NCBI RefSeq assembly: GCF_000002075.1
Contig: NW_004797643.1
Location: forward strand, 33,085-97,084
Length of the DNA stretch: 64,000 bases
DNA from: Aplysia californica
Lineage: Eukaryota
Reading direction: 5' to 3'
Within the stretch, counting starts at the first letter, position 1, and every line of letters begins with the position of its first letter. Both the position numbers and the translations under genes were made by a program. Positions 29,398 through 52,959 of this stretch are shown here, piece after piece. The notes beneath the pieces are model-generated. The model worked only from the letters and a program-made list of their open reading frames with translations, made no database searches and had not been told where the DNA came from.

Positions 29398-29620
29398 ATG
29401 CCTTTGGACACGTTTATCTGTGGCCAGTGCCAGGATTCCTTCACCGACCTCAATGAGTTCGTGCTGCACAAACAGGGCAACTGTCCTGCCACAGCCCCGG
29501 CCACCCCCGCCCCTCCCTCCTCCTCCTCCCCGGCCCTCCCACAGGGCACCGAGGTCATCCGGCTACACATGAACGAGTCAGGGGAGATCACTGGCATGTC
29601 CTCTTTGCCAGTTGGAGAAG
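29398..29620 (+). CDS. ZFAT: ZFAT-like coding exon 1 (acceptor at 29343/29344; in-frame stops precede the ATG)
   Basis: MPLDTFICGQCQDSF..FVLHKQGNC; donor AAG|gtatgt, phase 1. Confidence 0.8.
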
Positions 29621-31402: not shown

Positions 31403-31437
<35 letters not shown>

Positions 31438-34400
31438 AGATCATTTCTATAGCGCCCACTCCCGTGTAAACACAGCTCTAGGCGCTTTACTTAAATGCGT
31501 GTACGAACNNNNNNNNNNNNNNNNNNNNNNNNNNNNNNNNNNNNNNNNNNNNNNNNNNNNNNNNNNNNNNNNNNNNNNNNNNNNNNNNNNNNNNNNNNNN
31601 NNNNNNNNNNNNNNNNNNNNNNNNNNNNNNNNNNNNNNNNNNNNNNNNNNNNNNNNNCACGCGCACGCTTACACATTGTCACGAAATTAGCATAAATATA
31701 CACAATGCAATTCACATAATACATAAATGGATACATAGTCATTTACATAACATTGTACTGGACATGAATCTACAGACATAAAAATGATGTCATTAAATGT
31801 GCCTTTAAAGATTAAAAAAATTTAGACTCAGATGTTGTATGTCTCAAGGGTTGGGGAAGAGAGTTCCATACTGATGGAAATGACTTACTTTTTATCTTAT
31901 ATCATGAAACACATTGTCTTTTCAACAGAGCGAAGGGGGCGCTCAAAGACGGGAGAAGGCAAAGTGAAGGTCATTGAAGCTGTTCCCCCATCTACGCCAA
32001 AACCAACGGTGCCTGAAACCAGTAAGACTATGACTTCTCTCACAGAGGGTAGCTCATTGGCTCTATCTGTTGTTTTCTCTGGCTACCTGCCTGGTTTTTT
32101 TCTTCTCTGTGTGTCTGTCTTTTTGTCTGTTTGCTTTTCCTGTCGGTCTGTTTTCCCTGTCTGTCTGTCAGTTTTCCTGCCTGTCTGTTTTCCCCATTTG
32201 TCTGTTTTCCCAGTCGTCTGTCTGTTCCCCCACATTTTTATTTTTTGAACATCCTAATCAAACTAGCTCTCACTGGCAAAATTAAAGGCAAATGAGGAAG
32301 GGGTAGGCCCAGAGTAACCTATTAAGGGAACCTAAGCAAATTGGTAACGGGGAAAGATCAGGGTAATATAACTTTTTAAAGAGCATCCGAGCAAAGAAAT
32401 GAATGGAAAACCATGACCACTGATGTCTGCCGCAGATCTGGCACTGGATGATGAATCAAACATTTACACCACATATTCCCACACAAGGGAGCGGGGTTCT
32501 TGTGGAGTAAGGAGTGCAGGGGCTGATCAGGGTCCAAGACTGTAGTAAAGAGAGGCTAGTCACTTAAAAGAAGCAGTCTTTGCCATTTTTACAAGCTTTG
32601 ATATAAAATTAGATGTTGTCACATTGCAGTTGTTTTTTTCCCCAAGTACAACAGTGATCAATCAAACTTTTAGGACAAATTTTGCTTGCTTTTGATTACA
32701 AGACTTAGAAGCTTTTATTTCTAATTTGGTAACTGGCCCGGCAAAAGACGGTTTGTTTTGTCTCTGAAACTCTGATGGCCACCATCTGTGGTGTAGCATT
32801 TAGGGGCTATAGGTTTCATTTGATTTCCAGGTGAGGACAATTTTTATAGGGTGCCTCGGCCTTTTCTGTTGGGTTGTTGTAGTATCCCTCCCAGTTCGTG
32901 TTGGCCCTGACGGGCAGAATCGGAAGCCTGCCTCCTAAATGATCTAAACTGTGTTGATGGGGGTGCAGAAACATTTCTATTTAAAAATCAAAAGCACATT
33001 TTTATGCATGTTTCTTCTCCTCGTCAGACGCGGACGGCAAACTGGTGTGTCCCCAGTGTAAGAGAACGTTTGCCAAGGAGCGACATTTCAACACCCACAA
33101 GTGCCTGGCCACCTCTTCCTACGTCGACATCACCAAGAAGGAGATTGTGAAAATTGATTCGGGTAACTCTCGCATCTATCTGCTTTTTTTTCTTGTTTTG
33201 CGAAAAACTCTTCAAGTGTCGACGGCAAATTGAATCGGATATGAGTTTCGTTCTGTATTGTCATGGCCAATTTAATCAGGTGTAATTTGAGTGGCTATTT
33301 CAGTGTTTTTTGCAAGGTGTATATTGTTACATTTTGTTTCTAGGGAAATGTATATGGAGTAAAATTTTGTTGCCATTAAGATGTAAAGTGTGTTGTTTGT
33401 CTATGAGTGTGTCAGTGTTGTTTGTCTGTGAGTTTGTCACTGTGTTGTGTGTCTGTCAGTGTGTCAGTGTGTTGTTTGTCTATGAGTTTGTCTGTGTGTT
33501 GTTTGTCAATGAGCGTGTGTGTCACTGTGTTGTTTGTCTATGAATGTTTCCCATTCTTGTTTATCTATGAGTGTATTACCATGTTGTTTGTCTATGAGTG
33601 TGTCACTGTGTTGCGTGTGTATGTACAGGTGATGAAGAAGAGGGTCACGAAGACTTGGACGCTGGGGCACATGTTGATGAGGAGGAAGAGTTCACTGCCC
33701 CTGTTGATGAAAAGATGAGTGCTGAGAAAGAAGAGGAAGACGATGAGAAGGAAATGGACAAAGAGGATGTGGAGGAGGAGAGCGCAGACAAAAGGAAGAA
33801 GAAAAGAGGCAGGAAGAGGAAGCGAGGCGGAGAGGATGTGGAGGTGGGTACAACATTGTATTGCAGGGTCAAGTGTTGATTTTTTATAATAGATTCTCGT
33901 CTTTCACCTCCTTGCTGTTTGGAGGTTGGCGGAGGTTGGGNNNNNNNNNNNNNNNNNNNNNNNNNNNNNNNNNNNNNNNNNNNNNNNNNNNNNNNNNNNN
34001 NNNNNNNNNNNNNNNNNNNNNNNNNNNNNNNNNNNNNNNNGTGGGGTAAGACAAGGTTGGGTAGTAGCTAGGGAGGGGGGGGAGGAGGGAGGTGAGCAGG
34101 AGAGGAAGAAGGGTCATTATGAATTTTTGTATTGTAATGCAGGGAAGTCGAACATTTTTTTTAGGTTGGATTTTTGTCGGAAAACTTTTGTTCCCAGCGG
34201 CAGTGGTCGGATCAACGTTTGCAATAAAAGGAAATTTGAGGAAATCTGTAAGTTGCCTCGGGAAAGACCCGGGAAAATACATAAAAGTTCTTGAATACTT
34301 GAAAGCCAAATCCGATGTCCTTAGGTTCATTTTGTAGGTTGTGAACATTCAGCTTTTCCCGGTCTGAGAGTACGTTTCATGCGAACAGGCGGCTATGGAG

Positions 34401-37400
34401 ACTATGGCGGCAAGCGGAAGTGTATGAGTGATACCAAGGCTCGATTGGGAAAATCTAGATATGTTTTCGCTTTCACTACCACCCTGGGGGGGGGAGTTAA
34501 AGGCAACACAAGGGGATAAAATCTGAACTTGGTAGCAAATTTTAGCATTATCATTTAGAATTTTGATTGCAACGAGAGCTTTCTGCATAGCACATGTTGG
34601 TGCAAGCCTTGTGTGGAATCGAGATCCGTCATACCTTGTAAGCCTTGTTATTAAACTAAAGGGTTGGCATGTCATTGGATGGTGATGGTCGAGGTGAGCT
34701 AGTAAGCTCAATGATATTTATATAGAGAGAGTAGAGAGTTATAATAATTATATACTAAGTTGGTTGGTAAAAGTGACGGCATCTAGATTCTTGATCTATG
34801 ACCTTGAAAAAACTCAGCAAGATAGTCTTTGAAGAGGAGAAGATTGACAGCACTTGGATTACTGAAACCCAGGCTAGAGTCGGACTTATTTTTCTTGTGA
34901 TTTTTGTGACTATATGTGTAGACTATATTTAGATAGAGAGATCTAGACTAGATCCAGTACCATGGGAAAGTACTACTTCATCAACACCGAGTGATTGTCC
35001 AAACCCTAAATATTCAGAATGATTGATGGAGTATCAAAATGATAAAAGCAAGTTTAGATGTTAGTTTTGTTCCCAAGTGTATGTCATCGGTCATTCAGGT
35101 GTAAAGGATTTGAACTTTCACATGGTACCTCAAAAACACATGAAAACCCTAACCAGCCAGTGTGGTGCCAAATCTATTCTTAAGGTTACCAAGAACAGAA
35201 CAAGTGTTGTGAGAGATACTGAAAGGAAGGAGCACCAACAGTAATATAATAGTAATCTACTAGAGCAGTTGTTGACATGAGTTTTCTCATTTATGAGATG
35301 TTTTCAGACTCTAAAATAGCAGCGTTTTCAGTGTAATCTCACAAAACTTGGCTACCTTGGAACATTGAGATTGCAGCGGTGATCAAGTCCGCTATCCTAA
35401 GATGTGAACCAAATAACCCCTTCTACGTGATTCTCTTTGACGAGAGCCTTAACATTGACAATGGTGAGAAACAACTTGACCTATAGTGGTAGGATTTTTT
35501 GTGTGGTTTGGTTGGATTTTTAGGACGAATATTTCCCTGGCCACCCTGAAGTGTGTGGTCTGTATCTGTGTATCCTTTTTATACATGGTAGTGATATTTT
35601 TTGTTTTGTTTTCAGAATGGCACTTTATATTTATGCGGAAGCGTCCTTGAATTTGTTAAGTGCAAACATTATGGTGGACATGATTTTCTCGCCGGTTGCC
35701 TTTGTTATATTAAGTTTATGTTTTACTGCACTCGCAACACAAATAGGTAAAAGAAATGCAGAAGATTAGGGGTGTTACTAGAGAGTAACATACAAATTAA
35801 AGAAGGAGGAGAAATAACGACAATAATTGTTTGATTTTAAAAAATTAGCAAACTGCACCTCACGCACCCACCAACCACCCGTGATTTGGGTGTAAACCAA
35901 TGCTTTATCTTACGTATTTCTGTGATATCTGCGACAGTTTGACATGAGCGTCCAGGAGTCGGGGGCGCAACAGATGAAGGCAGCGGCGGACTCGCTGGAG
36001 AACTTGCCGATCTTCAAGAATGACGAGGAGAGAGAAGCTTTTGAGGCCTGTGTGGACGTAGATTTATCCTCTCAGGTAACGGATTACTCAACATTTGTTT
36101 TAAACTACGATAAGAAAAATGTGTATTTGTCAAGATTTGGTGTTTCATCACACTCACTCAAACATGCATACGCCCATACATGTGCTCACACTGGTACACA
36201 CACATTCTTTCTTCCACATATGTCTGGACACATAATGACATGCTTGCACTCACTGACAAACCCGCAGTCACACGCATTATATATGTTGTCAACTAATCAA
36301 CCAATGAAGGAAAGGGGGGAAGAGTGTTTAGGAGACTGTTACATGGAATAGATTTATTATCTACTTATGTTGTCAACTTATAAGGCTTTGGGGGGNNNNN
36401 NNNNNNNNNNNNNNNNNNNNNNNNNNNNNNNNNNNNNNNNNNNNNNNNNNNNNNNNNNNNNNNNNNNNNNNNNNNNNNNNNNNNNNNNNNNNNNNNNNNN
36501 NNNNNNNNNNNNNNNNNNNNNNNNNNNNNNNNNNNNNNNNNNNNNNNNNNNNNNNNNNNNNNNNNNNNNNNNNNNNNNNNNNNNNNNNNNNNNNNNNNNN
36601 NNNNNNNNNNNNNNNNNNNNNNNNNNNNNNNNNNNNNNNNNNNNNNNNNNNNNNNNNNNNNNNNNNNNNNNNNNNNNNNNNNNNNNNNNNNNNNNNNNNN
36701 NNNNNNNNNNNNNNNNNNNNNNNNNNNNNNNNNNNNNNNNNNNNNNNNNNNNNNNNNNNNNNNNNNNNNNNNNNNNNNNNNNNNNNNNNNNNNNNNNNNN
36801 NNNNNNNNNNNNNNNNNNNNNNNNNNNNNNNNNNNNNNNNNNNNNNNNNNNNNNNNNNNNNNNNNNNNNNNNNNNNNNNNNNNNNNNNNNNNNNNNNNNN
36901 NNNNNNNNNNNNNNNNNNNNNNNNNNNNNNNNNNNNNNNNNNNNNNNNNNNNNNNNNNNNNNNNNNNNNNNNNNNNNNNNNNNNNNNNNNNNNNNNNNNN
37001 NNNNNNNNNNNNNNNNNNNNNNNNNNNNNNNNNNNNNNNNNNNNNNNNNNNNNNNNNNNNNNNNNNNNNNNNNNNNNNNNNNNNNNNNNNNNNNNNNNNN
37101 NNNNNNNNNNNNNNNNNNNNNNNNNNNNNNNNNNNNNNNNNNNNNNNNNNNNNNNNNNNNNNNNNNNNNNNNNNNNNNNNNNNNNNNNNNNNNNNNNNNN
37201 NNNNNNNNNNNNNNNNNNNNNNNNNNNNNNNNNNNNNNNNNNNNNNNNNNNNNNNNNNNNNNNNNNNNNNNNNNNNNNNNNNNNNNNNNNNCCCCTCCCA
37301 AAAAAAACAACAACAAAAAACCCCAACAACCCCAAATCTGTTGCAGTTACACCTCTTTCTTTAAATCTAATCCCTGCCTCGTGACTTTGGTCATTTCCCA

Positions 37401-40400
37401 GGAAACCTGTACACTCACATGCGCAAGCACACAGGTCAGTTCTACCGCTGCGAGCAGTGCGACTTCAAGACGGTCAACAAAAGTCACCTGATCGAGCACA
37501 AGATGACCCACGACAGCCGTCGATCTCAGTGCATGATCTGCCGCAAGGACTACTCCACCCTTAAGTCTCTGATCAACCACGTCCGCAAGTACCACACGGA
37601 CAAACCCGGCAAGGAGTATCTGCAGACTTTCTTACAGGTCAGATGAAGATATGTATGGCATAGTGGTGGCACAGGGGCTTGTCAAAATAATTGAATAAAA
37701 AATAGAATACGTACATTGCTTATTGCATTTATTATGCAAACAAATTAATGTTGCTTACTAATATAATAACAGGCACAGCCTTGATACCACAAACACTCAA
37801 ACTGTTTTTCATTGCTGATAATGCATTCCTCTAATTATTTTAGTGAAGTAAGTATTATTACAACATGTTTCCAATGATGTGGTACTGCCGGCATCTGCTG
37901 TGTAATACCAGTAAGAACAAATTTTGGGCCTGAAAATCTGCTCACTATATGCATGTTTCGCTATGTGCCTATTTCGCTATGTGCGTGCTGGACAGTTCTG
38001 TAATTTTACATTCTAACGTTGTTCCCATCAGGCTGTGACCTCAATGGATTTTTTTTCTTCTTTTTGTTGTTCAGGGCCGCGGAGTGCGTGGCACCACCAT
38101 CATCCACCAATGCCACGTCTGTAATCGTAAGTTCAAGAAGCGAATCGACCGCGACCGACATCTATTCATTCACGACATCAAGGACTTGCCTCATGTCCAG
38201 CAGGTAGCTTCTCCTGTTTGTGTCATTGTTGCGTTCCAGAAAACTTGTGTAATTCACTTTTTCTGTGTGTGTGTGTGTTACACTGTAAACTGGTTGACTA
38301 CTGTGTGTGTATATGTGTGTGTGTGTGCTACTCTGTCTATCTGTGTGTGTGTGTTACTCTGTCTATCTGTGTGTGTGTGTTTTAGTGTGAGCTTAAGTCT
38401 GTCAGTATGTGTGTATGTTACACTAACTGTGTGTCGATCTATCTCTCTGTCTTTGTGCTTGTATTACAGTGTGAGCTGTGTGATTACTGGACCAGCCGTA
38501 AGATCTACCGAGACAAACTCTACCTGAAGCATCGGGTCATCTGCTCTCTATGTCTCCTCTGCGTGTCTGTGTGTGTGTCTGTGTGTTTGTCTCTGCATCT
38601 GTGTGTGATACTCCATCAATCTGTGCTTGTATTACAGTGTGAGCTGTGTGACTACTGGGCCAGCCGTAAGATCTACCTGGATAAACACTACCTGAAGCAT
38701 CGGGTCATCTACTGCTGTGCTCTCTGTGATGAGAAGGTCAGTTTGGGGGGGGGGNNNNNNNNNNNNNNNNNNNNNNNNNNNNNNNNNNNNNNNNNNNNNN
38801 NNNNNNNNNNNNNNNNNNNNNNNNNNNNNNNNNNNNNNNNNNNNNNNNNNNNNNNNNNNNNGGGGGGATTGTGTGAGGTTCTGTCTTCCACTCACCCCTT
38901 CAGGACTTCAGGACAGTCTTTGTCTGTATTGTTTTGTTCTGAGATAGCCACTACTTTTATCTACTTGTTATCAACAGGGGATGACTGATGGGCGCTACAA
39001 GTAGGTCTTATTTCTTTTCTTTCCCTTTGTCATTTCTGTTTGTCTTCTGTCCTTTTCCCAGAACTAGATGACCGTTATTATTTCAATGCACTTTTTTTTT
39101 TTTAGTCAAAGATATATTTATTGCTGGGAATGTTGTTTCTGTCTATCTGTCTTACTGCTCTAAATGACTGCTATTGTATCAATGTGCATCTCTTTACTCA
39201 AACTAGCATGATTTAAAACATTTTTTGTCCACAAACCTTGGTTTAAAATGTACTTAATGTTACAATGTTCTTTGATTTAAAAATGTTTATTATAAAAAAA
39301 TTTTTTTTGCTTTGCCAGTTTTTGAGCACAATAAAGTTGTCTGAACATCTAAGCTCCAGCCACAGCGACCATGGGGAGAACGGAACGATGGTGGCGGATT
39401 CCTTGCTGGAGGAATGTATCAACAGGTCAGTCCAGGCCACACCACAGTCATTTAGCTCTTTTTTTTATAGTATAGGTATGCCCCCATTAATGCAAAGTCA
39501 GATCATGTGGGAGGTTGGCTTTTTACCCTGCCTGTCAGGGCTGACCCAGGCTGAGAGGGATACTACGTCCCAGCAGAAAGACCAATATACTCAATAAAAA
39601 TTTCTCCCTTTTCGGGAATCAAACGCGGGTCTCCTGCATGCAATAGTGAAGCGCCTTATCACTACCCCACAGATACTTGTTCATTAACCCTCTAGTGCCG
39701 GCTATAAGAAATAATATTGATATGAAAACTATGACTCATCACGCTGTTTTTATAAAGACAATATAACTGAAATATTTGAAGTCGGTTTACTGAGTTATAT
39801 ATATATATATATTTTTTTTTTTATAGTAGAGGGTTTTACGGCGCTCGCAACTGCATAAGGTCATATGAGCGCCAAGGGGTTGGTGTCAAAAGAGAAGTCT
39901 TTACAGGGAATCAGACTTAGACTGCTCACCTCTCTAGCTTCAACAGCACAAGATCTGCTTCGACCATCAAGGCACCCCAAAATAGCAGGTCAGAAGAGAG
40001 TGACAAACATACAAAAGAAGTAGAGGAAAATGACAATAGTAAGGATCAGGAAAGAAAAAGCAGCAGTTCCCTGTTGTAGATCAGGCACAGTTATGGGCGT
40101 GACCTGAGTCACTCCTTTTACAATTCTACTATACTTGAACGAGAAATGTCCCCCTTTTGGGAATGGCCAAAAGGCACTTCAGTCAGTGGCACTGCCCCGG
40201 GGGGGTTTACTGAGTGAACAATACTTGTAATATTTGCCTCTCCCTCTCTCCGAAAAATAATAGCGACTAAGCCAATACCCTCTAGAGAGTTAAGTGGTCA
40301 TAGTGACCACAACATAATCATAAAAAAACAAAACAGAAAAAAGAATCCCCTTGTATCAACCAATGACAAAGTTCACTCTGTCCAGGTCCCTGTACCTTCC

Positions 40401-43075
40401 CGAGCCGCTGGCTATGACTAAAGATGGCAACAAGTACGTGAACTTGCCCGAAGAACTTCGAGCAACATCGGACAGCAACAATTCAGTGACACCAGCATCA
40501 CTGACGTCAGCACAGACACCATCACCGACGTCAGTACTGACGCCATCAGCGACAACCACCACCCCTTCCTCCGGCAGCAACACTTTCTCACAGACCACAA
40601 CAACAACGACAACAAATGACCGAGGGCCAACCACAGACTCTACCCTGACGGTCGTACCGTCTGCCGAGAGTTCTGGAGACTTCCTGTCAGAGTTCAAAGA
40701 GTTAACGGGTCCCTCAACTGACTTGCTCTCTCCCCCTGCGCCAACCACAGGCCAGACGGTCAAAGCAGACATGTCCGCAAACGATCAAGTTAATTCAGAG
40801 GTCGTGAGCAGCGTCTGTCAGCCATTTTCCAAAGTGGAAGACCTGCTAGATGTGTCGACTCAGGGAGTGAACTCTGTGGGCACAGACGGAGGGGACGCAA
40901 CTGTTGGGTCGCAACTTGTTGAGAATATCGTAGAATCGGAGAACAAAGGTACAGTTGTAGAGGGTTTACGTTTATCCATACTCTACAGCGTGCTTGATCC
41001 ACTTTACAATTATTATTATCCCTGAAGGTGGGTGGAGATCGCCTCTGGTATGTCCTACTTCTGTTGTTTCTGGCTTTTTTCTTTGCTGTAAATGACTATT
41101 GTGGGTGGTTAGGGAGTGTTCTGGGGTTATTTGCTCCTTCTTTCCTATTAAACCTCTATCGTTCTTATCTCTCCTCATTCCTTTATTATACCTTTGGCAC
41201 TTATATATGACCCTATTGTGTTGCAAGTGCTGTAAAACTCTTAACTTAAATAAATAGTGACCATTATTGTGGTGTTCTTCTTTTCTTTTCTCAAACTCCG
41301 TCATTTTGTAATAATTACTCTCCCCAGATACAGAAGACGGTGATGGAATAAAGTCGGAGAATCGGGTCGGAAAAGACTCACAGGTGGCGCCACACGTGCT
41401 CATGTTACAAAACCCTGGCTCTGACTCGGAGGGAGGAGAGGAGGAGGTTTCGGACAAGGTCGGGTCAGAAGAGGCAGCTGAGGGGACGACCTCAGTTGTG
41501 AAGACAGAGGGAGTGGAGGGGATGGAGGAGGAGGCGGAAGGAGGGGAGGGCTCAGATGAAGAGGAAATGTTTGTGGAGGAGCAGCAAGAAGCCGGTCTGG
41601 CTTCAGGGGAGAACAGTGGAGAGAAACTTCCAGAAACTGACGAAGGTGAGAATTGGGGTACAGTCGAACTTAGTTTAGTTTTAGTAATAGTCTTATGGCA
41701 AATTTTGCAACACATTTAGGTTAGGTTGTATAAGTGCCAAAGATTAGAGGTTTTGCTAGAGAGTTACATACAAAGACAAGAATTAGGAGAGATAAGGAGG
41801 ATAGATGTTTAATAAGAAAGAAGGAGCAGACCACACCAGAGCACCCACCCCCACCCACTGCCCACTGTATTGAAAAAATATTTTTTTGAAACTATTTAGT
41901 GTTGTTGTCTTTATGCCTACATTGATACAATTTAAATAATTTTGGAGGTAGGCTCCTTGCCCTGACCTTCGGGGCCATCCTGGGCGAAGAGGAATACAGC
42001 ATCCCAGGAGGAAGATCAAGATACTTGATAAAAATTTCTCCCTCTTGGGAACCAAACTCAAGTCCTCTTGTTGCCACAATGAAGGGACCAACCATTACCC
42101 CATAGGCACTTGTCACAAAATGAGATTTCTTGAGGTCTCAGAAACTTGATGTGCTAAAAGTAACTATGGTTTTTCAGTACACGTCTGTCGTTCATTTATG
42201 TGTCTAATCTTATTCTGCGTGTGTTTTTACATTCAGTTCTCTTTCTATGTGTTTCTTTTTTTTTCCTTTCCTTTTAGTTGTGGCTATTTTTCTTTCGATG
42301 TTTGTTGTAGACCTTCCAGTTTTTATTTTACTCTTTAACTTTAAATTTAGGAGGGGGGGGGAGGAAGATTTTTCTCTCCTCTTATGTTCTTTTTCGTGTC
42401 TCATTTCTCTTATCTTTTTTTTTTTTATTCTGGTACTTCCTCTTTCAATTTGTCTCAGTTTGTTCTTCTTTGTAACCCTTTTGAAAATCTTTTGTCTTAT
42501 TCTTTTTCCTTTTAAAAATCTTTTACATCTTTTTCTCTCCCCCCCCCCCCTCCTTTTTTCATCTTGTTCTCATTTTTTAAATATCTCCTTTTTTTCATCG
42601 TATAATATTATCTTTCCCCCAACCAGTAGGGCAGGAGTCACCTAACGCAATGGCCAAAGAGAAATCGGCAGCTGAGGAGAGTCTGGAGGTGGCTGAAGGT
42701 AAAGCGGCGAGTGGCAGCGCGGGCACAGAGAGCAAGAACGAGAAGATTGAAGCCTTGATCAAGAGGATGGGCTATCGGCGGATGTCTATGGACATATTCA
42801 ACAAGATGAGGGACACGTTCGGCACGGAGGAGTGCGAGTTTTGTGGCAGGCTGTTCTACAGCAAGGTGGACTACGAGCCTCATGTCAGGACTCACACAGG
42901 TGAGGGATAGGAGGGGGAGGGGGAGGAGAGGGAGTAACAGGCTGTTCTACAGCAAGGTGGACTACAAGCCTCAGGTCAGGACTCACACAGGTGTAGCGTG
43001 GCTGCAGGGATCGGATACATGCCTTCTCACTCTGCTGCTCTCTGCCTCTCTTTCTCTCTCTCTGTTTATCTGTCA

Positions 43076-43107
<32 letters not shown>

Positions 43108-43995
43108 CTTCCCACATATACAAATATACTCACACACACACAGACACGCACACACACACATGCGCACACGCTGCGCAAAATGGTGGCATATATCAATTTT
43201 GTCTCTGTGTGGATCACTTACAGTGTACCTCTGTTCCCTCCCTTGCGCTCAAATGACCTTATACAGTTGCAAGCGCTGTAAATCACTTACCAAACTGTCC
43301 TTCCCCACAGGCGACAAACCCTTCGCTTGCGCTCACTGCAGCTTCCGAGCCAACACCAAGGACCAGCTGAAGCGACACTCGGAGAAAGAGCATGAGAAAA
43401 TCGCCTTCCAGTGCAAAGAGTGCGACTTCCTGGCGCCCACACGGACACGTCTGTGGAACCACCAGCTCAAACACCTGGGCATCAGTGGACTCTCCTGTCC
43501 CAGGTGCTCCTGTAAATTTGACGGGTACGTTCTCCTTTGTTTTTAGTAAGGTTTAAGGGCGCTTGCAACTGCATAAGGTCTAATGAGCGCCAAGGGGTGG
43601 ATGTCAACAGAGAAGTCCAAACGCGGAATCAGGCTTACTCTGCTCACCTCTTTAGCCTCAACAGCTCAAAGTCTGCTTCAACTATCAAGGCACCCTGAAA
43701 ATAGCAATTCACAAGGGAATGACATACACACAAAAGAAGTAGAGAAAAAATGACGATAGTAAGGACGAGGAAAGAAAAATCAGCAGTTCCGCCTATGTTG
43801 TTCAAGCACAGTATCTGCTGTCCTTTCGTGTATATAATTAATGTATGGTTGTGAAAGTTCTTCTTCATGTGGTTGAACTGGTTTTTCTTGTTTCTGTGAA
43901 ATATTTTCTCATGTGTGAATGATCTTGTGATTTGTGTAAAGCGCTCAGCTCAGAGCTCATGCTAGTATGGGATAGAGCGCTATGTAAGTGCAATC

Positions 43996-44026
<31 letters not shown>

Positions 44027-44117
44027 GACTCAGTGGGTGTTGGGTGGGTGCTCTGGTGTGGTTTTTTCTTTCCTTTCCACTCTCCCTGTCTCTCTCTTTC
44101 TCTCTCTCTCCCCCCCC

Positions 44118-44175
<58 letters not shown>

Positions 44176-47100
44176 CCAATGTACTTTATTTACACTACTA
44201 TATATGTACAACATACTTTTGTGTTTCCTGTGATCATAGAATGAAACAGCTACGGGCTCATATCCTGAACTGTGTTGTATGTCCAACGTATTTTATGACT
44301 CAATGATATGTAGGCCTACCTCATGTTTGATCGCTTTTAACTCACTGACTACGGATCCCGTCACAGGTACGGGGCGGACGGTCGGTTCGCAGGTACGGTT
44401 CCCGTACCCCCGATGGGATGGACTTTGCGGTTTTGTTCTGTAACTTGTGCTCCCGTCACATGAAAGGGAACGGACTCCAGTGCTAGTTTTGCCTCTTGTT
44501 TGGTTTCGTGCTGAGTTTGGCCGAAGTTTCGTGGTAACTTTTTAAGCAATTGAAGGTGAAGGACAGTCACCTCATCTGGGGTTGACCTGACCGGAACTCG
44601 CGCTATGTTTTTTCTATACAAATGATAGTAATCCGACAGTCGCGTCAAAGTAACGGTCGCATGAACAAGAATCACATAATTTCGCTGTTTTCGACACTTC
44701 TGTACGTTTTGCTAGTTCTAGTGACTCAGGATATGATGTGTCTGATAGTTAGGACCCTGGATATGTACCCGAATACCGCCCGAGTTGTAGTTTTAGGGCT
44801 AGATCTAGCACTAGTACTGTTGTTCTTGTTCGCGTGACGAAATCACAACTTCGTTCCCTACATCTGTCTCATGTAATTCAGTGTATGGGTCTGAATAAAA
44901 GCACAGACCAGCTTTTATATTTTTACCAAACACTCACCCATGGATACAAATCAAAACAGAACACTTTAAACTTTTATTTTTGTTGTTGTTGTGGATTTCA
45001 TTTTATCTGTCATGTCTCTGGAAATTTTTTCTAAAAATCAAATTCATTCCAATTTTGAAACAATCATAAGAATTAAAGTTTTAAACTCAGAGAACTTAAA
45101 TTTTTTGCAATAGATTAAGTTTGAAAGTAACTTTACTATGTCAAAAAATAATTACAATAGGGTAATTCTGAGAGTTGTGGTGGTGTCTTGAAATACTCCC
45201 AAAAATGCCAGTACTCAGCACTAGTGATTTGTGAAAGGGGCCAGTAGTCAGTGAGTTAAGGACAAGCAGGCTAACCCAGATTTTGAGGGTTTCCAGAAAT
45301 CTTGACCGACACCAAAAATGGGCATTGCCCTACCTATAGGAGAAGTTTGGTTTTATTGGTGTGTATGTATAGAGAAAACTCTCCTTGTCATTTAAAGAAA
45401 CTGAACAAGGGGCAAAAACTTTACCTTTGATTTTCTCAAAACAGCATTTTTCAGGATAGCTCCCTTGTGCTTAAAAAGCGACCATTTGTATGCATGTGTC
45501 TTGTGATCACAGAATGAAACAGCTGCGGGCCCACATCTTGAACCAGCACCAGGACATGGACAAACAGACGCTGGAGAAACTGACAGGCTACAGGCACCGG
45601 CCCCTAGGACGCATGGGTCAGTCTCTCCATGCTTGTCGTTTACCGGCTGTTTCACGCAGAGTGTCTTTTACATTGTGTGTCTTTTGTGCTATGTGTCTTT
45701 TTACTTTGTATGCCTTTTACTTTATGAAAAATGGTGTGTGTTTATTAATACTAGAAAGTTATTTTAAAAGGCAGGTCTTTTATTTTGTGTGTTACATTAT
45801 GTATCTTTAACAAGAGTGTGTCTTTTGCTTTATGTGTCTTATACAGTCGAATCTGCTCCAAGTTTTAACGCTTACCTGTATAAGTATAAGTAAGACAATC
45901 ACTTGTACAAACTTCCTATTTCCTCCCTTGTGTATTTTTTTCACCTTATCAATGACATTATGTAAGACGGCCTTTTTCTTCTCGACAGTGGGTGGACATC
46001 CTTGACAGTTTTAACTGTATTATATACTATGTGTATTATATTGTTTTATCACTAGTGACATTTTTAGGGGGGATTTCATTCTTGTATTTCCAACAGGTCG
46101 AAGGTCATTCAAGTGTCCCCACTGCCCGCGTACTTTCATCCGTGCAAATTCTGACTTGCAAAAGCACATCTGGATACATGAAGGCATCAAGCCATTTGCT
46201 TGTCCAATTTGCCCGTATGCTTGCCGTTCCAAAAATAACCTACAGGTACGAGGCTCTCAAAGTCAGGCTTATTCTAATACTGCTGTGCTAAGGAACTTTT
46301 CCTCTCACAGTAGTCACAGTCTACTGGTTTCCATGCTCAACTGATTAGGCTTTTTGCTCGTTTCACATGGAAAGCATGAGTTCAATTCTAAATTTTCCGC
46401 TTCAGTTAGCTCTGAGCCCTACTGTCATAGTGGACACCACACAAAGTTGTAAAAATAAACCACTTCACAATGTTGTAAAATGACACCATCATCTCACGAT
46501 ATATTCTTTCCGGCGTCTGTGGTGTGTAATGGTTAGCCACTTCACTGTTGCTCTCGGGGGACCTGAGCTTGATTCTGGAGTGGGGGAGAAATTTTATTGA
46601 ATATCTCAGTCTTTCTGCTGGGTTGTATCCCTCTTAACCTGTGGTAGCTCTATCCGACTTTTTCCCTGCACTATATGCCCGTTATTGTTTCTTTAATTCT
46701 CTTTGCTAGTCTTTACCTAAACAAACACACAAATGTGAGGAGTGCTGACACAATGAGTTACTTCTCGCAATCCAAGAATGGAGATATCGGCCGAAAATCG
46801 ACACTGGAGTCCGATTTTTTAATTTTTAACTGATGCCATTTTCTTCAAGTCCACCGTGTCTTTTATTATTCCATTCTTACAAATTGTGCAAACTCCAGTT
46901 ATAAAGTAAATGTATCAGGCTAAAATCCGAGAAGTAACTCATTTTTTCAGCACACCTCTCATTATTGTTTTCATATCCCCCCCCCCCCTATAACAGGCCC
47001 ACATGCTGAGACATTCCACGGAAAAGCCCTTCTCCTGCTCCGAGTGTGGCAAGGAGTACAAGTCAAAGACGGCACTCAGGTGGCACGTGCGCTCCCACAA

Positions 47101-50100
47101 GACGGGGAAAGCCTTCAAATGTGATAAGTACGTGCTTCTTTCCCGCTGTTCCTCGTGGTGCACTGGTCTTGATTATGTGTGCTGTAGAAAGGGATAAATA
47201 CGTGGATTTCTCTGCTGTATGTAGAGTCAACTGGCCTTACTTGTATGTGTTGTATATTGTTCATTTTTACTATAAACTTATAAGCCCTATATGTCATCTG
47301 TTATTAGGATATATATTTTTCGTACATAAACCTATATGATGTATCAAATTTTGGTCCGACCAAAAGGTAGATATAGATGTCGTTATAACATGTGTCATGT
47401 TTTCTAGATAAATGTTGTTATGGTATTATTTATGTCTCATATTCTCCCCCCCCCCCGTAGATGTCCATACGAGGCGACCCAGCAGAGTCACCTGAAGCGA
47501 CACATGGAGACGCACGAGGTGATGAAAAGGTTCGTCTGTAAACACTGCGCGTTCTCTGCCAACACACTGGGCTACATGAAGATACACTACGCCCGACACC
47601 ACAAGGTAACGGCAGCTTGTTTTCTTGTTTGTTCACCATGTCAACTTGACTTGTTGCTTACCACAAGGTAATGTCAACTAGTAATGTTGCTTACCACTTA
47701 CCATACACCATGAGGTAATGTCAGTTTGTTTTGTTGTACTACTTGTAGGTACTGCCCCTTTTTTCTTGAAGATGTTTGTTGTAAAATATACATGTAAAAA
47801 AAACTTTAATTGTTCATTGTACTAACATTTATGTAAAGCTCCTAGAGCTCTGTGCTCATGGCAGTAAGCAATGTAAAAATGACCTACATCATTATTATTC
47901 CCCTACTCTCCCCCCAGGGCAAGCCATTTGTCCACGAGGAAACAAGTGAGACCACCATCTCCCAGCCAGAGAAGCGTGTCTTCAAATGTCTCAGCTGTGG
48001 CTACTTGTTCGGTAACCTGTCTGACCTCAAGCGACATCTGAAGATACGGCACCTGGTGCAGATGCAGGCCATAGCCGGGATGGAGCAGCTTCAGATCTCG
48101 GAGGTGGAGGTAGGCAGAGGGGGGGGAGATGGGAGTTGGTAGGTGGAGGGTAGCAGGTAGGAGGCAGAAGGTGGAAAGTGGAAGGATTGGTTTTACAGAC
48201 ATGTTACTCAGACCTGCCACTCATCCCGATTTAATTGGGATATCCCGATTTTTTTCCCCCTATTTTCAAGCATCCCGATTTTTTTGTTCTTTCTGTTGCG
48301 CCAGATTTTTCTAAAAACAAACTCTGCCTTTGTATATTTATGGACACCCGTGGTAAATTTGAAAGCCAGCTGGGCAGTCACCCTGGTGATTCGTCGTTGG
48401 TCCCGATTTTTTTCCCCTGATCCAGATTTTTTTCCCTTGAGATCCTGATTTTTAGATTTTATGGAATGGCAAGACTGTGTTACTGGTGTGGTGTTTAGGC
48501 TCGTTGTTGTCGCTCGCAGAAGGCTTGAGTTGGATTCTTCAGTGGGAAGCCTTGGACTTTAAGCTTGGATTTTGTACCCCTCTCAACTCAAGTTGGGCCT
48601 GACAAGTAGGGTTGGAAGCCCACCTCCTAAATGATTTAAATTGTGTCAATTGGAGTGTAAAAACACCTTCTGGTATATTTGTTTGTTATTTTTTATATTT
48701 TTTAAGAGGAGACAAGAGATACAAAAGATAGCTGAACCTCCAGACTAGTGAGGAAGAAACACTAAACCCATGGACAAAATGTCTCCATTTTTTGTCACTC
48801 AATACATCTCTACATCAGACAAGTTTCGTTTATTGATAGCCAGTATCTCAAGAAATATGTATTAATGTATAATATCTATATTCAATGGTGTTATATTCAT
48901 TTTTTATTTACGTTTTGTGTAAAATATGCCTCTTTACCTGTGTGATATTGAATGAAAAAAAGAAGTGGAAAACAATGTTTGTTGTTGAAATGTTAATAAA
49001 GAGATTTTGACCCTTGTAACCTTCCCATCCATCGCCCATCTCCTCACCAACGTCCCATCAGGTGGTTCAGTACGAGGACACAGCAAATGCTGCGACAGCC
49101 ACCGCCACACTGGCCGACATGTCACAGGTTCAGACAGCTCCCCAGGTTGTTTCAGGTTCGTACCTCATTTTTCTTTTTTTAGTAAGTTAGCTTGCCCCGA
49201 ATTTCCTGTGACTGTCCCAGATTAAGCAATCCACAATGTGAGAGTCTTATCACATACAGTCGCCTCCGTTTGTGTTGAACTTGCTTGGTTTAACTGAACT
49301 TTTTCTCGGGTCCAAGCACCTCTTCTTCTTTATAGTTATAGTTACTGCACGTTTGTAATTGTGTGTCTGTGTATCTCCAGCGGGCGACCTTCAGACTAGT
49401 GGGCCGAGTGACGCGAGTAAACCATCGGTGTCTGCCGTCAGCCTCATACAGCAGCTCTTGGGAATGTCACAGGTCAGGGATATGTTTTATATAGATAATA
49501 TTAGTATATATATATACAGATAATAATTGAAATTGTGTAATATCTGTGCTCTACAGCTGGTCTTTGTGTTTTGAACATTATAAAATAATATAATGTAATG
49601 ATACTACACCAGAATGTGCTATGTTGGGTTTGTTGAAGTGTACTTTATGCTGAGTCAGCACAATGACATGCATTTTATTTAGGCCTGGCAGTATTAAGGA
49701 TTTTTAGTTTGATTAACTTATGAAGTCTTGAGATGAAGGAAGAAATAGTCTGCAGCCACTGAAAGCAGTGGAGATGTGAAGAAAGAGCTCATATTCATAT
49801 GTACAGTCGTAGCATTAGAGTTCACCTCTTGGAATGTAACTCAAGGGTTTTTTCTGTATGTCTTTACGTTGGGAACCCTTAAAATAAGTTTGAGTCAAAG
49901 GAAATCTGAGTGTGAAAATTAAATCGCTCTGTTATGATGGGAATTTCTGTCTCCTTCTTTAAAAGAATATCTTTCAAAAAGAAAAATGGTGCACACTACA
50001 CAGATACGGTACAGTGCCGTGTGTTTGTAAATAATGAGCAAGTAAACAAATGTGTACTGTGTGCCCCGTGTCCCGTCTTTGGAGTGTCATACTAAACATT

Positions 50101-52959
50101 TAGTGGGTGGTTGGCAGGTGCTCTGGTGTTGTTGACTCCTTCTTTCCTATCAGACATCTATGGTCTTTATATATTTTTTTCCTTTAACAAATTTGGGGTT
50201 TTTTTGTTTGTTAATGATACTCTCTAGTAGCACTCATTATCTTCAATACCTGTATGACCTAGCGGTGTTGCAAGTACTGTGAAACTCTTACACCAAAACT
50301 AGGACTTACCCAGTGGCCTTGAACTTCCTCAGGGTGACAACCAGGTGCGCGTGGTGTCGGAGGATGGGGAGCCATTTGAACTTTCCCCCGAGACCATCAT
50401 CGTCCAGCAACAGGACGGTCAGCTACTTCTGACCAACGAGGCGGCCGGGGCCATGGCTGGGGGGCAATACGTCATACAGTACTACAACCCGGGGGAAATG
50501 GTGAGTATGTGTGGGTGTGCGCGCATGTGTGTGTATGTCTTGGGGGGGGGGGGGTATGTCATACAGAGCTGCAACCCAGGAGATGCGGTGTGTGTGGGTG
50601 TGCGCGCATGTGTGTGTATGTGAGGGTAGGGTTTTAGGGAGGGATACGTCATACAGCACTACAACCCAGGGGAAATGGTGAGTATGTTTGTGTGTGGGTA
50701 GGGTTTGGGGGGGGGGGGGGGGGAGACAGTTTGTTATACAGTAGAGGTATTACAGCTACAACCCAGGAATTATGATGAATGTATAGGAGGGATGTTCAAT
50801 AAGTCTTTACCCCGGCTATGAAAGAAGCAAGAAAGAGAGTTTAAATTTGACACCCACAATGCAGCTTCTGTTCATAGAGTTAGAGACAACCTGCAAATTA
50901 TGTGGTTTAATTATGGGAAGACCCGGGTCGGCGATCCCAAAGAATATTATATCAATAAAAATTTTTTAAATATCTAATTTTTGTTTTTTGCTGAAAAACA
51001 TCCCTTGACATCTGTTCTATCGGGTCACAATGATGAAACTGTTGAAAAAACACCCTAAATGACCTAAAAGGGCGTTTGAAAAAATCAACAAATTCACGAA
51101 TCGTACATTTACCTATGAACTTCTTGCACAATGACATGAAAGTGAATACAAGTATTTCGTTTAGAAAATTTGTCCGGGAGTGCACGTCTCCCTTTTAAGT
51201 TTAGGCCGGTGCTACTGGCCTGATCTCGGGTGGCCTGTAGGGAATTTCTGTGACCTCGGGTGGCAAGCATTTTCTGCCCACTTGGAGCCAGTCATCTATA
51301 TCTAGTCTTAGATACGGGGTGCCCACTACGGCTGGATCGGGCCGATCGCCTGAAACTGAAAACAAACAAGGTTTCCCTCGTGAGTTGACTAGATACCCTA
51401 GATCTATCACCCTTTATTTAATTATCTTTCATCGGAATGTCGGTGACAAAGTTACTAACAATAAAATGCAGTGTCGTGATGTTATTAAAGATTGTCTAAC
51501 TACTACCAAGATGTTTCAATTACCCTATCTCGCATCCGAACGAGACTTGGACGCTAGATCTACTTCGTCTTAGCGCGTGACGGCCCGTGATACGAGTGTA
51601 AACAAACGTTCCAGCGCTGAGTTGAAAGCGGGAAATTTTGTCTGCGGGCAGAGAGAGAAAGAGAGAGAGGGGGGAGAGAAAGAAAGAGAGAGGGAGAATG
51701 AGAAAGAGAGAGGGAGAGAAAGAGGTGGGGGGGGGGAGATTTTTGGTTATTAGAATTACTGATTCCTGTTGTTTTCTCTCTGCGTCGATTCACAAACTGA
51801 CCCAGTGCAATACAGTCATTATTGTACTCATTATGCCTAGTCCTATGACATGTATTATAATAATGCCATGTTGACCATCCGACTTTTGACTTTGAGGACA
51901 AGGAGAAGTGACCGAGTGACTGAATCTTGCGCGATTTCTAAAGGAGCATGCGCAGAAATTCCCACAGGCCAGAACACGGAACAAGCGCAGAAATCCCCAC
52001 GTGCAAGAAGCTGCAGACTAGGCAGGGCTAATCGAGCGAATTCATTCGCCTGGAACATGCGCAGAAATCCCCACCGGCCTGTAGCGCCAGGCTACTTGAC
52101 CGAGATCGGGCGACTAGCCACTCCGTTTAGTTTAAGCAGACTCCAGTTTAATTAAATTGAGTTAGCGAGAAAAAAATGTTGTGACTTGTGTTGTTCTCTC
52201 TTGTTTCAGCCGCCTGGGGCGGAGTCGAGTGTCGCCGCAAGCAGCTCCGGTGGGGAGGTACAGCTGGCACCCGCACCGCCAGACGCCGGTCAGTCCATCC
52301 AGTTCCTAACCGCTCCCCAGGACCAGGGGGCGCAGTTTATCATGACCCCGGGTGTGCACCGGCAGATCCTGACCTCTGAAGGTCAAGCACAGATTCTCAC
52401 CCCTGAAGGTCAAACTCAGATCCTGACCTCTGAAGGTCAAGCACAGATTTTGACCTCTGAAGGTCAGGCTCAAATCTTGACCTCTGAAGGTCAGCCTCAG
52501 ATTCTGACCTCTGATGGTCAAGCGCAGATCTTAACCTCTGATGGTCAAGCACAGATCTTAACCTCTGAAGGTCAAGCTCAGATTTTGACCTCTGGTGGTC
52601 AGGCTCAAATCTTGACCTCTGAAGGTCAACCTCGTATACTGACCTCTAACGGTCAAGCTCAGATTTTAGCCAGCAGCGATGGACAAACCCAGATCATCTA
52701 CCCAGAGGACGGCAGTGGGGGTCAGCTGATAGCCATCGAGGGCAGCGGACATCTGCTGTCAGCTGGGGGAGAGAGGGAGGCGGCCGGTCAGTTTGTGGTC
52801 AACACGGACCTGGACACCATCAGCGAGCACCTCATCATCTCTGACCCCGGGGGTCGTGGAGAAGTCCTGGAGGGGGAGGGTGGGGATGATCCCGGCGGGG
52901 CCAGAACTTCGCAGCAGCTGGACGGGTTTACCATCTCTACTGGTGCCGAAGACTCGTAG
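29398..52959 (+). CDS. ZFAT: ZFAT-like zinc finger and AT-hook protein; spliced gene with 23 visible coding exons plus at least one in a gap
   Basis: Finger order and unusual fingers match vertebrate ZFAT as I recall it: CHVCNRKFKKRIDRDRHL, ECEFCGRLFY..YEPHVRTHT, KCPHC..F.RANSDLQKHIWIHEGIKPF, ACRSKNNLQAHMLRHSTEK, and AVSLIQQLL near the C-terminus. All introns are GT-AG with matching phases, except across the gap. Confidence 0.88.
30143..30490 (+). CDS. ZFAT: ZFAT-like exon 2
   Basis: gtacag|AT ... AAAA|gtaagc; phase 1/1. Confidence 0.8.
31929..32021 (+). CDS. ZFAT: ZFAT-like exon 3 (AT-hook-like KKRRGRSK)
   Basis: caacag|AG ... CCA|gtaaga; phase 1/1. An alternative in-phase donor near 32048 is possible. 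Confidence 0.7.
32783..32975 (+). mobile_element. tRNA-derived SINE, family S1
   Basis: tctgtggtgtagc head; cctcctaaatgatctaaactgtgttgatgggg tail. Confidence 0.7.
33028..33162 (+). CDS. ZFAT: ZFAT-like exon 4 (C2HC finger)
   Basis: CPQCKRTFAKERHFNTHKC; phase 1/1. Confidence 0.82.
33385..33620. repeat. ~27 bp minisatellite (tgtgttgtttgtctatgagtgtgtcac)
   Basis: Visible tandem units. Confidence 0.8.
33629..33843 (+). CDS. ZFAT: ZFAT-like exon 5 (acidic tract plus KRKKKRGRKRKR nuclear localisation signal)
   Basis: gtacag|GT ... GAG|gtgggt; phase 1/0. Confidence 0.8.
34140..35548 (+). mobile_element. Degenerate hAT-like DNA transposon in a ZFAT intron
   Basis: CAGGG...CCCTG ends; MGK..F...W-like start at 34962; catalytic-block remnant FYVILFDESLNIDNGEKQLD at 35421-35480. 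Target duplication not preserved. Confidence 0.65.
35938..36075 (+). CDS. ZFAT: ZFAT-like exon 6
   Basis: gacag|TTT ... CAG|gtaacg; phase 0/0. Confidence 0.75.
37402..37637 (+). CDS. ZFAT: ZFAT-like exon (C2H2 fingers)
   Basis: cccag|GA, encoding NLYTHMRKHTG...; donor CAG|gtcaga; phase 1/0. Confidence 0.88.
38075..38203 (+). CDS. ZFAT: ZFAT-like exon
   Basis: CHVCNRKFKKRIDRDRHLFIH; phase 0/0. Confidence 0.88.
38638..38736 (+). CDS. ZFAT: ZFAT-like exon
   Basis: CELCDYWASRKIYLDKHYLKHRVIYCCALCDEK; phase 0/0. Confidence 0.88.
39319..39425 (+). CDS. ZFAT: ZFAT-like exon
   Basis: FLSTIKLSEHLSSSH...ECINR; phase 0/2. Confidence 0.85.
39490..39673 (-). mobile_element. tRNA-derived SINE, family S1
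   Basis: Reverse complement of the S1 head and body. Confidence 0.7.
39825..40200 (-). mobile_element. Dispersed retroelement 3'-end fragment, family R
   Basis: Matches 25090-25400 in reverse; an adjacent poly(T) run corresponds to an A-rich tail. Confidence 0.65.
40386..40948 (+). CDS. ZFAT: ZFAT-like exon (Thr/Ser-rich linker)
   Basis: tccag|G, encoding SLYLPEP...; donor AAAG|gtacag; phase 2/1. Confidence 0.78.
41328..41645 (+). CDS. ZFAT: ZFAT-like exon (acidic linker)
   Basis: ccccag|AT ... GAAG|gtgaga; phase 1/1. Confidence 0.8.
41900..42105 (-). mobile_element. tRNA-derived SINE, family S1
   Basis: Reverse complement of the S1 body. Confidence 0.65.
42627..42899 (+). CDS. ZFAT: ZFAT-like exon (NAGNAG acceptor)
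   Basis: accag|TAG; encodes ECEFCGRLFYSKVDYEPHVRTHT; donor CAG|gtgagg; phase 1/1. Confidence 0.85.
43311..43524 (+). CDS. ZFAT: ZFAT-like exon
   Basis: DKPFACAHC...CPRCSCKFDG; phase 1/2. Confidence 0.88.
43545..43810 (-). mobile_element. Dispersed retroelement 3'-end fragment, family R
   Basis: Matches 39825-40090. Confidence 0.65.
45256..45474. mobile_element. TTAA-flanked MITE (Kolobok-like), family K copy 2
   Basis: TTAA|GGACAAGCAGGCTA...TAGCTCCCTTGTGC|TTAA. Confidence 0.75.
45513..45616 (+). CDS. ZFAT: ZFAT-like exon
   Basis: MKQLRAHILNQH...PLGRM; phase 2/1. Confidence 0.86.
46097..46245 (+). CDS. ZFAT: ZFAT-like exon
   Basis: RRSFKCPHC...SDLQKHIWIHEGIKPFACPIC; phase 1/0. Confidence 0.9.
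46512..46650 (+). mobile_element. tRNA-derived SINE, family S1 (3' truncated)
   Basis: gcgtctgtggtg head and the shared S1 body. Confidence 0.7.
46997..47127 (+). CDS. ZFAT: ZFAT-like exon
   Basis: AHMLRHSTEKPFSCSECGK; phase 0/2. Confidence 0.9.
47461..47605 (+). CDS. ZFAT: ZFAT-like exon
   Basis: CPYEATQQSHLKRHMETH...HYARHHK; phase 2/0. Confidence 0.9.
47918..48109 (+). CDS. ZFAT: ZFAT-like exon (last finger)
   Basis: FKCLSCGYLFGNLSDLKRHLKIRH; phase 0/0. Confidence 0.88.
48209..48477. mobile_element. MITE with a 7-bp flanking direct repeat (P- or hAT-type)
   Basis: TGTTACT|CAGACCTGCCACTC...GAATGGCAAGACTG|TGTTACT; internal tcccgatttt repeats. Confidence 0.75.
48485..48670 (+). mobile_element. 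tRNA-derived SINE, family S1 (degenerate)
   Basis: Shared cctcctaaatgatttaaattgtgtc...taaaaacac tail. Confidence 0.6.
49062..49155 (+). CDS. ZFAT: ZFAT-like exon
   Basis: catcag|GTG, encoding VVQYEDTANAAT...; donor G|gttcgt; phase 0/1. Confidence 0.72.
49381..49472 (+). CDS. ZFAT: ZFAT-like exon
   Basis: ctccag|CG; encodes ...SAVSLIQQLLGMSQ; donor |gtcagg; phase 1/0. Confidence 0.75.
50333..50500 (+). CDS. ZFAT: ZFAT-like exon
   Basis: GDNQVRVVSEDG...YVIQYYNPGEM; donor |gtgagt; phase 0/0. Confidence 0.8.
52210..52959 (+). CDS. ZFAT: ZFAT-like last coding exon
   Basis: tttcag|CCG, phase 0; open to the TAG at 52957-52959. Confidence 0.82.
   Translation, partial: PPGAESSVAASSSGGEVQLAPAPPDAGQSIQFLTAPQDQGAQFIMTPGVHRQILTSEGQAQILTPEGQTQILTSEGQAQILTSEGQAQILTSEGQPQILTSDGQAQILTSDGQAQILTSEGQAQILTSGGQAQILTSEGQPRILTSNGQAQILASSDGQTQIIYPEDGSGGQLIAIEGSGHLLSAGGEREAAGQFVVNTDLDTISEHLIISDPGGRGEVLEGEGGDDPGGARTSQQLDGFTISTGAEDS
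52363..52698 (+). repeat. Coding 27-bp minisatellite, ~12 copies of QILTSEGQA
   Basis: cagatyytgacctctgaaggtcargcw units, in frame. Confidence 0.92.

What the first reader, a model, noticed from the sequence alone, without database searches (positions are those of the whole stretch)
38380..50785. Recurrent local copies of ZFAT exon boundaries inside flanking introns
At least six ZFAT exons have diverged copies of a splice junction nearby. Acceptor copies lie upstream (38381, 38450-38545, 44220-44270) and donor copies lie downstream (42938-42992, 47193-47218, 47660-47735, 50552-50785). In every case the degraded copy falls on the intron side and the reading frame survives. This could reflect a high rate of short tandem duplication filtered by selection, or a reservoir of decoy and alternative splice sites.
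Basis: partly seen in the sequence, partly recalled or inferred. Interest (0 to 1): 0.7.

Follow-up and report, generated by a model that had tools for sequence, protein, structure and literature searches.

The report
Splice-junction echo duplications in sea-hare ZFAT
Five exons of a sea-hare zinc-finger gene have real, decaying copies of their own splice junction in the neighbouring intron, but in a sample of other genes from the same genome such copies are no commoner at junctions than in plain intron DNA, so they are likely harmless leftovers of ordinary short duplications, like the "mirages" known from lancelets.

Summary
The copies are real. The gene is ZFAT (labelled Aplysia californica by a source). 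Five of 44 junctions (exons 9, 13, 15, 18, 22) carry clear diverged copies on the intron side; the sixth (47193) is weak and lacks GT. Transcript-like contigs of four runs use the annotated sites. The proposed control is negative: in 41 other genes of this genome 39 of 1180 junctions (3.3%) have a copy, against 1256 of 23,846 intron tests (5.3%); 0 of 1178 lie on the far side. Gene rates track local intron duplication, and 4 of 24 well-sampled genes match or exceed ZFAT. The one-sided polarity follows from tandem geometry plus the need for one intact exon. These are mirage-type exon-boundary duplications (lancelet, human F7); this scan noted them before in urchins, protists and another gene of this genome. 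No sign of a splice reservoir. One residue is unexplained: pooled copies differ from working exons mostly at silent sites (73 silent, 53 replacement; neutral simulation gives 42% silent), though not significantly in ZFAT alone.

The parts
29398..52959 (+). ZFAT coding region, 23 visible exons (one or more further exons lie in the N stretch 36396-37291)
   Evidence: exon translations match P0001 exactly; 100% hit named zinc finger protein ZFAT [Aplysia californica]
38638..38736 (+). exon 9 (one C2H2 finger), source of the acceptor copies
   Evidence: X18 contig length between exon 7 and exon 11 equals exons 8+9+10 = 335 nt
38397..38556 (+). tandem copy of the exon 9 acceptor (about 70 nt TG-rich intron + 76 nt exon), AG kept, same splice score as the real site; use would add 56 open codons with a broken finger
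38346..38393 (+). older, shorter unit of the exon 9 acceptor
   Evidence: 0 of 3000 random windows reach its score
42938..42993 (+). copy of the last 53 nt of exon 13 plus GTG, 2 differences, after a 35-nt G/A-rich spacer; GT kept, weaker (6.4 vs 12.2); use would shift frame (+91)
   Evidence: single match in the genome; spanned by an X2 contig
44222..44270 (+). copy of the exon 15 acceptor (18 nt intron + 31 nt exon, 86%), AG kept, weaker; frame stops after 21 codons; 4 silent and 0 replacement differences
44337..45259 (.). 923-bp element with 23-nt inverted ends beginning TTAA (MITE-like, inferred); with a second repeat (about 45260-45487) it pushed the exon 15 copy away from its source
   Evidence: inverted arms; 39 of 39 other scored places match query 56-998 at 88-94%; 45287-45487 recurs at 11402-11609
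47188..47250 (+). doubtful copy of the exon 17 donor, GT lost
   Evidence: (28 of 3000 random windows reach it)
47660..47737 (+). two copies of the exon 18 donor (about 10 nt exon + 20 nt intron), GT kept, scores 7.5 and 6.3 vs 7.1; use would shift frame (+62, +109)
50541..50807 (+). three further units of the exon 22 donor (period about 88-110); unit 2 keeps an identical donor 177 nt downstream but its use meets a stop at codon 41; unit 3 has lost GT
   Evidence: joint 50499-52209 in 4 of 4 runs

Best explanation
The ZFAT copies are decaying short local duplications that include a splice junction, likely produced by the same background duplication process that fills this genome's introns and likely unused in splicing. 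Shown: the copies exist, lie 50-450 nt from their source (median offset 180) unless later split by insertions, always fall on the intron side, and are no more frequent at junctions than at intron positions in 41 other genes. Inferred: a tandem duplication across a donor leaves the full exon upstream, and one across an acceptor leaves it downstream, so the partial copy must be intronic; duplications wholly inside exons are removed by selection; exon definition and first-donor choice keep using the real site, and most mis-splices would shift frame or meet a stop and be cleared by nonsense-mediated decay. The molecular route (slippage, unequal exchange, or break repair with filler) is not determined. 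ZFAT is in the upper tail of a very uneven gene-to-gene distribution, and was picked for that.
For: 39 of 1180 junctions (3.3%) vs 1256 of 23,846 pure-intron tests (5.3%), ratio 0.63, gene bootstrap 0.37-0.95; intron positions positive on one side only (array interiors left out) 2.8%; far side 0 of 1178; exon interior 10 of 3466. Same order at score cut-offs 32-60 and against intron within 200 nt of a junction, 288 of 6766. Junction rate tracks intron rate across 24 genes with 16 or more junctions, rho 0.70, p 1.6e-4; 4 of those 24 equal or exceed 5/44. Beta-binomial P(5 or more of 44) = 0.12. Annotated splice path in contigs of 4 of 4 RNA-like runs. In-frame offsets 10 of 44; copy weaker 21, equal 19, stronger 4; GT/AG kept in 37 of 44, about what this divergence gives. 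A MITE-like insertion accounts for most of the one long spacing.
Against: ZFAT's own pure-intron background is low (14 of 678, 2.1%) while its junction rate is 5 of 42; a plain binomial on the first dynein set gave p 0.005-0.03. The exon parts of copies show a silent-site excess that simple neutral decay does not give (73 silent, 53 replacement in 482 codons of 43 copies; neutral simulation 0.415, 0 of 4000 resampled sets reach 0.579). The control is three gene families, not the genome; the eight chaperonin genes had 0 of 116, so gene classes differ. Only 3 of 32 copies abut their source within 10 nt, so strict tandem origin is inferred. Minor isoforms cannot be seen in contigs, and 23 joints were not displayed.
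Confidence: 0.8

Rival explanations
1. The copies are background duplications in origin, but their exon part does not then decay neutrally: either the copy is partly constrained (about 0.6 of the expected replacement changes), or silent sites of the working exon change two to three times faster than intron DNA, or the copy came from a divergent allele.
For: Silent fraction 0.58 (copy bootstrap 0.49-0.68) vs 0.41 expected; four-fold sites 45 of 177 differ, second positions 20 of 482. Simulation through the same detection pipeline gives 0.41-0.42 under neutrality and 0.53-0.55 under each of the three alternatives. Seen in dyneins (49:37) and myosins (16:9), in 18 of 24 copies with two or more differences, and after dropping the top five copies (47:40). 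Likelihood fit with intron parts gives omega about 0.6.
Against: Not significant in ZFAT alone (8:7). Same in in-frame and out-of-frame copies, so not translation through the copy. Three aligned blocks from two near-identical contig pairs, taken as likely alleles, differ by only 1.5-2.4% in introns and 1 of 493 exon sites, far below the 8% an allele origin needs. The mutation model came from 182 intron pairs and may miss exon-specific effects. No far-side copies, so truncated whole-exon duplicates are not the main source.
Confidence: 0.12
2. A junction-targeted mechanism (splicing-coupled or RNA-templated repair, or microsatellites next to splice sites) makes duplications preferentially at exon boundaries, at least in genes like ZFAT.
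For: ZFAT 5 of 42 junctions vs 2.1% own intron background; the exon 13 copy stops 3 nt after the donor; exon 9 and 22 units sit in TG-rich tracts.
Against: No enrichment in 41 genes; no link with simple repeats beside the junction (odds ratio 1.05, p 0.85); most copies carry intron sequence, which a spliced-RNA template would lack.
Confidence: 0.05
3. The copies are a functional reservoir of decoy or alternative splice sites that tune ZFAT output.
For: 8 of 10 ZFAT units keep GT or AG; two have the same score as the real site; the exon 9 copy would give an open 56-codon insertion.
Against: Contigs of four runs follow the annotated path; other ZFAT copies give frameshifts or stops; no excess of in-frame offsets or of retained dinucleotides.
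Confidence: 0.03

Closest known systems
Amphioxus 'mirages' (globins BflGb6/BflGb9, Adh3; PGBD5, TnC). PMC3087553 and PMC3902484, passages read; the original Adh paper was not held and is known only as cited there
   Same: Tandem duplications spanning an intron-exon boundary at either end, many but not all keeping AG/GT, normal mRNA splicing, unit sizes in the same range (10-160 bp there; about 50-180 bp here).
   Different: ZFAT units are mostly 2-4 degenerate copies, 75-96% alike, some with spacers or later insertions; copy-number or somatic instability was not tested here. The passages read give no matched intron background; here the background shows no junction preference.
Human F7 intron 7 37-bp VNTR (PMC1557585, abstract and outline only)
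   Same: First unit spans the exon-intron boundary; downstream pseudo-donors stay silent because the most upstream donor is chosen, as seen at ZFAT exons 18 and 22.
   Different: F7 is a homogeneous polymorphic minisatellite at one donor; ZFAT has several independent degenerate events at donors and acceptors.
Internal tandem repeats at exon-intron boundaries and intron gain by tandem duplication (PMC2812944 and PMC2891723, passages read; Gao and Lynch 2009 not held, seen only as cited)
   Same: Short intragenic tandem duplications are common raw material and are filtered by selection.
   Different: No new intron or alternative isoform is shown at ZFAT; the copies lie inside existing introns.

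Membership tests
Mirage-type exon-boundary duplication | Direct local repeat whose unit spans an exon-intron boundary | tested here: met
   5 of 44 ZFAT junctions; 39 of 1180 in other genes
Mirage-type exon-boundary duplication | Many but not all units keep AG/GT | tested here: met
   8 of 10 ZFAT units; 37 of 44 copies overall
Mirage-type exon-boundary duplication | Regular splicing is not disturbed | tested here: met
   annotated path in contigs of 4 of 4 RNA-like runs; minor forms cannot be seen in contigs
Mirage-type exon-boundary duplication | Minisatellite-like array of several units | tested here: inconclusive
   exon 22 has 4 units, exons 9 and 18 have 3, exons 13 and 15 only 2; Tandem Repeats Finder lists none of these junction units
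Mirage-type exon-boundary duplication | Length polymorphism between haplotypes or somatic instability | not tested
Mutually exclusive / tandem duplicated exons | Whole exon copied with both splice sites and an open frame | tested here: not met
   ZFAT copies hold 10-76 nt of exons of 99-270 nt and one junction only
Alternative 5'/3' splice sites | Copied site is joined in transcripts | tested here: inconclusive
   none among the joints and pieces listed; raw-read depth on exons near zero
ZFAT zinc-finger genes | Sequence identity with annotated ZFAT proteins | tested here: met
   100% to P0001 and 59% to a Biomphalaria protein, both named ZFAT by a source; exon by exon

The most novel reading that the evidence does not exclude
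Intronic junction copies in this gastropod are not neutral debris: their exon part diverges from the working exon mainly at silent sites, implying either hidden constraint on untranslated exon copies or accelerated silent change in exons that have a decoy beside them (for example selection to out-compete or un-pair from the decoy). Such pairs would be a genome-wide natural experiment on selection at silent sites.
Probability: 0.15. Interest if true: 0.65.

Novelty: new member of a known kind. Interest (0 to 1): 0.3.

Why it matters
As a locus it is ordinary. Its use is as a control: mirage-type junction copies, described as a possible lancelet peculiarity, occur at about 3% of junctions (36 of 590 introns) in sampled genes of a gastropod and at no more than the intron background rate, which argues against a junction-targeted mechanism here. 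The copies can mislead gene predictors and read mappers. The silent-site excess, if it holds genome-wide, would be a new handle on how exons and their decoys evolve.

Tried and rejected
Raw RNA reads X21-X23: ZFAT exons had near-zero depth and repeats swamped the tables; no evidence either way. No listed holder was on record as RNA; the runs are RNA by guess, but their contigs skip GT-AG introns. PDB search of exon 16 gave generic C2H2 hits, with ZFAT fingers low in the list. let the query overlap its own flank, which hid scores under 40; redone. mis-aligned four copies; redone. The short C752 region was dropped in favour of its longer version D752, and one chaperonin-family region with no modelled intron (t152) was left out before the pooled count; one copy with no frame (C469) was left out of the codon count. 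ZFAT intron 6 (masked) was left out, hence 42 rather than 44 junctions. Alignment A2 mixed non-homologous regions and was not used. Rejected: assembly doubling (copies 4-25% diverged); a long target-site duplication for the exon 15 copy (the spacer is two separate repeats plus about 70 nt of other sequence); truncated whole-exon duplicates as main source (0 far-side copies); simple-repeat seeding; allele origin of the silent excess at present-day diversity; selection through gene-conversion load (my estimate: with diversity about 0.015 and divergence about 0.08, 4Nc is near 0.2, too weak; inference). Literature: 9 searches listed no mollusc mirage paper and no junction-versus-intron test; the library lacks most subscription journals, two key papers were not held, and no supplements were read, so absence from print is not established.

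Full report
Gene and organism. Reading the window and translating candidate exons gave 23 visible exons from 29398 to 52959 on the + strand. Exon 13 hit a 1711-aa protein at 100%, named ZFAT [Aplysia californica] by its source, and a Biomphalaria ZFAT at 59% (8 hits among 155 candidates). All 23 exon translations lie in order in that protein; residues 385-458 fall in the masked stretch. The window lies in G000:C373.

Observation. Each of 44 junctions was tested as a 60-mer against 1.5 kb on either side, with 60 random flanks as null. Five have a junction-spanning copy far above null: acceptor 9 (82), donor 13 (56), acceptor 15 (61), donor 18 (36), donor 22 (78). The exon 17 donor case is weak (28 of 3000 random windows) and has lost GT. 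Divergence of 4-25% rules out assembly doubling; X2 contigs span two of the sites, though X2 may be the assembly's sample. The exon 15 copy is 1273 nt from its source because a 923-bp TTAA-ended element with inverted ends (39 other scored places at 88-94%) and a second repeat lie between; without them the period is about 120 nt.

Splicing. Raw reads of three RNA runs had almost no depth on ZFAT exons. Contigs of four RNA-like runs show joints 43523-45512, 45615-46096, 46241-46993 and 50499-52209 in all four, contiguous record coordinates across the exon 13 donor, a gap matching exons 17+18, and in X18 a 335-nt gap equal to exons 8+9+10. So the real sites are used at all six junctions; 23 joints were not displayed and contigs drop rare forms. 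If used, the copies would give frameshifts (exons 13, 18), early stops (15, 22) or, for exon 9, a 56-codon insertion with a broken finger.

I located dynein, myosin and chaperonin genes, fetched about 1.6 Mb, and modelled introns by spliced alignment to homologous proteins; the junctions show normal GTRAG and YAG profiles. With simple repeats masked, the same test was run on junctions, intron positions every 40 nt and exon interiors. Pooled over 41 genes and 590 introns: junction, intron side 39 of 1180 (3.3%); junction, far side 0 of 1178; pure intron 1256 of 23,846 (5.3%; 2.8% if only positions positive on one side are counted); exon interior 10 of 3466. Ratio junction/intron 0.63 (0.37-0.95). 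By family: first dyneins 18 of 720 vs 434 of 13,576, myosins 9 of 188 vs 206 of 3940, chaperonins 0 of 116 vs 392 of 3032, further dyneins 15 of 164 vs 257 of 3458. The order holds at four cut-offs. Gene rates are very uneven and follow the local intron rate (rho 0.70, 24 genes); four genes match or exceed ZFAT (6/30, 4/22, 5/28, 2/16). Against this, ZFAT is high relative to its own introns (5 of 42 vs 14 of 678) and p is 0.005-0.03 under a plain binomial, but 0.12 once gene-to-gene spread is fitted, and the gene was chosen because it stood out.

How it works. Shown: local direct duplications are common in these introns, rare inside exons, and hit junctions at about the background rate. Inferred: tandem geometry forces the partial copy to the intron side, since the full exon must keep its other end; selection removes duplications inside exons; the splicing machinery keeps the real site, as shown experimentally for the human F7 donor array (PMC1557585, abstract). 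There is no sign of selection to keep or destroy the copied signals (GT/AG kept 37 of 44; in-frame offsets 10 of 44) and no link with adjacent microsatellites. The route of duplication is open: only 3 of 32 copies abut the source within 10 nt.

Unexplained residue. Prompted by the 4 silent and 0 replacement differences in the exon 15 copy, and by earlier notes on protists, I counted differences in 482 codons of 43 copies: 73 silent, 53 replacement. With the mutation spectrum of intron pairs, neutral decay of the copy plus silent change in the exon predicts about 41% silent, also when simulated through the detection pipeline (0 of 4000 sets reach 58%). The excess is spread over families, frames and ages but is not significant in ZFAT (8:7). 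Partial constraint on the copy, faster silent change in the exon, or an 8%-divergent source allele each fit; likely allelic contig pairs differ by only about 1.5-2.4%. I cannot choose among these, and an unmodelled mutation effect remains possible.

Known relatives. Lancelet 'mirages' are the same kind of structure (PMC3087553, PMC3902484; passages), as are the F7 VNTR and boundary repeats in human paralogues (PMC2812944, passages). Instability, one mirage feature, was not tested. The scan's earlier notes report the same in urchins, protists and RCBTB1 of this genome; these gave me the literature leads and are not independent support. Nine searches listed no mollusc case or matched background test, within the limits of the library.

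Verdict. Real, five solid cases, a new member of a known kind, explained by background duplication and selection; not junction-targeted in the genes sampled and with no evidence of a splice reservoir. Interest 0.3, held up by the negative control and the silent-site residue.

Noticed in passing
window 52363-52664: 27-bp coding minisatellite, 11.2 copies, in the last ZFAT exon (nine-residue repeats).
   Followed up: no
window 33389-33613: 27-bp intronic minisatellite (8.3 copies) that ends just before the exon 5 acceptor without including exon sequence.
   Followed up: partly
window 42624-42629: Tandem acceptor CAGTAG at exon 13; P0001 has one more residue than my model, so it uses the upstream AG.
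   Followed up: partly
window 22149-22777 and 23680-24293: 630-bp intergenic direct duplication at 91% identity.
   Followed up: no
window about 16030-18100: Long single-exon ORF with WD40-like ends; WDR76-like by recall, not checked by any search.
   Followed up: no
window about 12100-15170: Decayed transposase-like stretch, hAT-like by recall, not checked.
   Followed up: no
window 134-3070: Large terminal exon rich in YDxP motifs; p130Cas/BCAR1-like by recall, not checked.
   Followed up: no
G000:C752:179062-180090: Three tandem matches to the same dynein domain segment (positions 133-173 of PF12774), a likely whole-exon triplication; similar doublets in a chaperonin gene on C369 and a myosin on C596.
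   Followed up: partly
G000:C307:174001-224000: Dynein gene with 6 of 30 junctions carrying copies, more than ZFAT.
   Followed up: partly
G000:C2481 vs C26, and C1025 vs C596: Near-identical gene segments on separate contigs (1.5-2.4% intron difference), likely uncollapsed alleles.
   Followed up: partly
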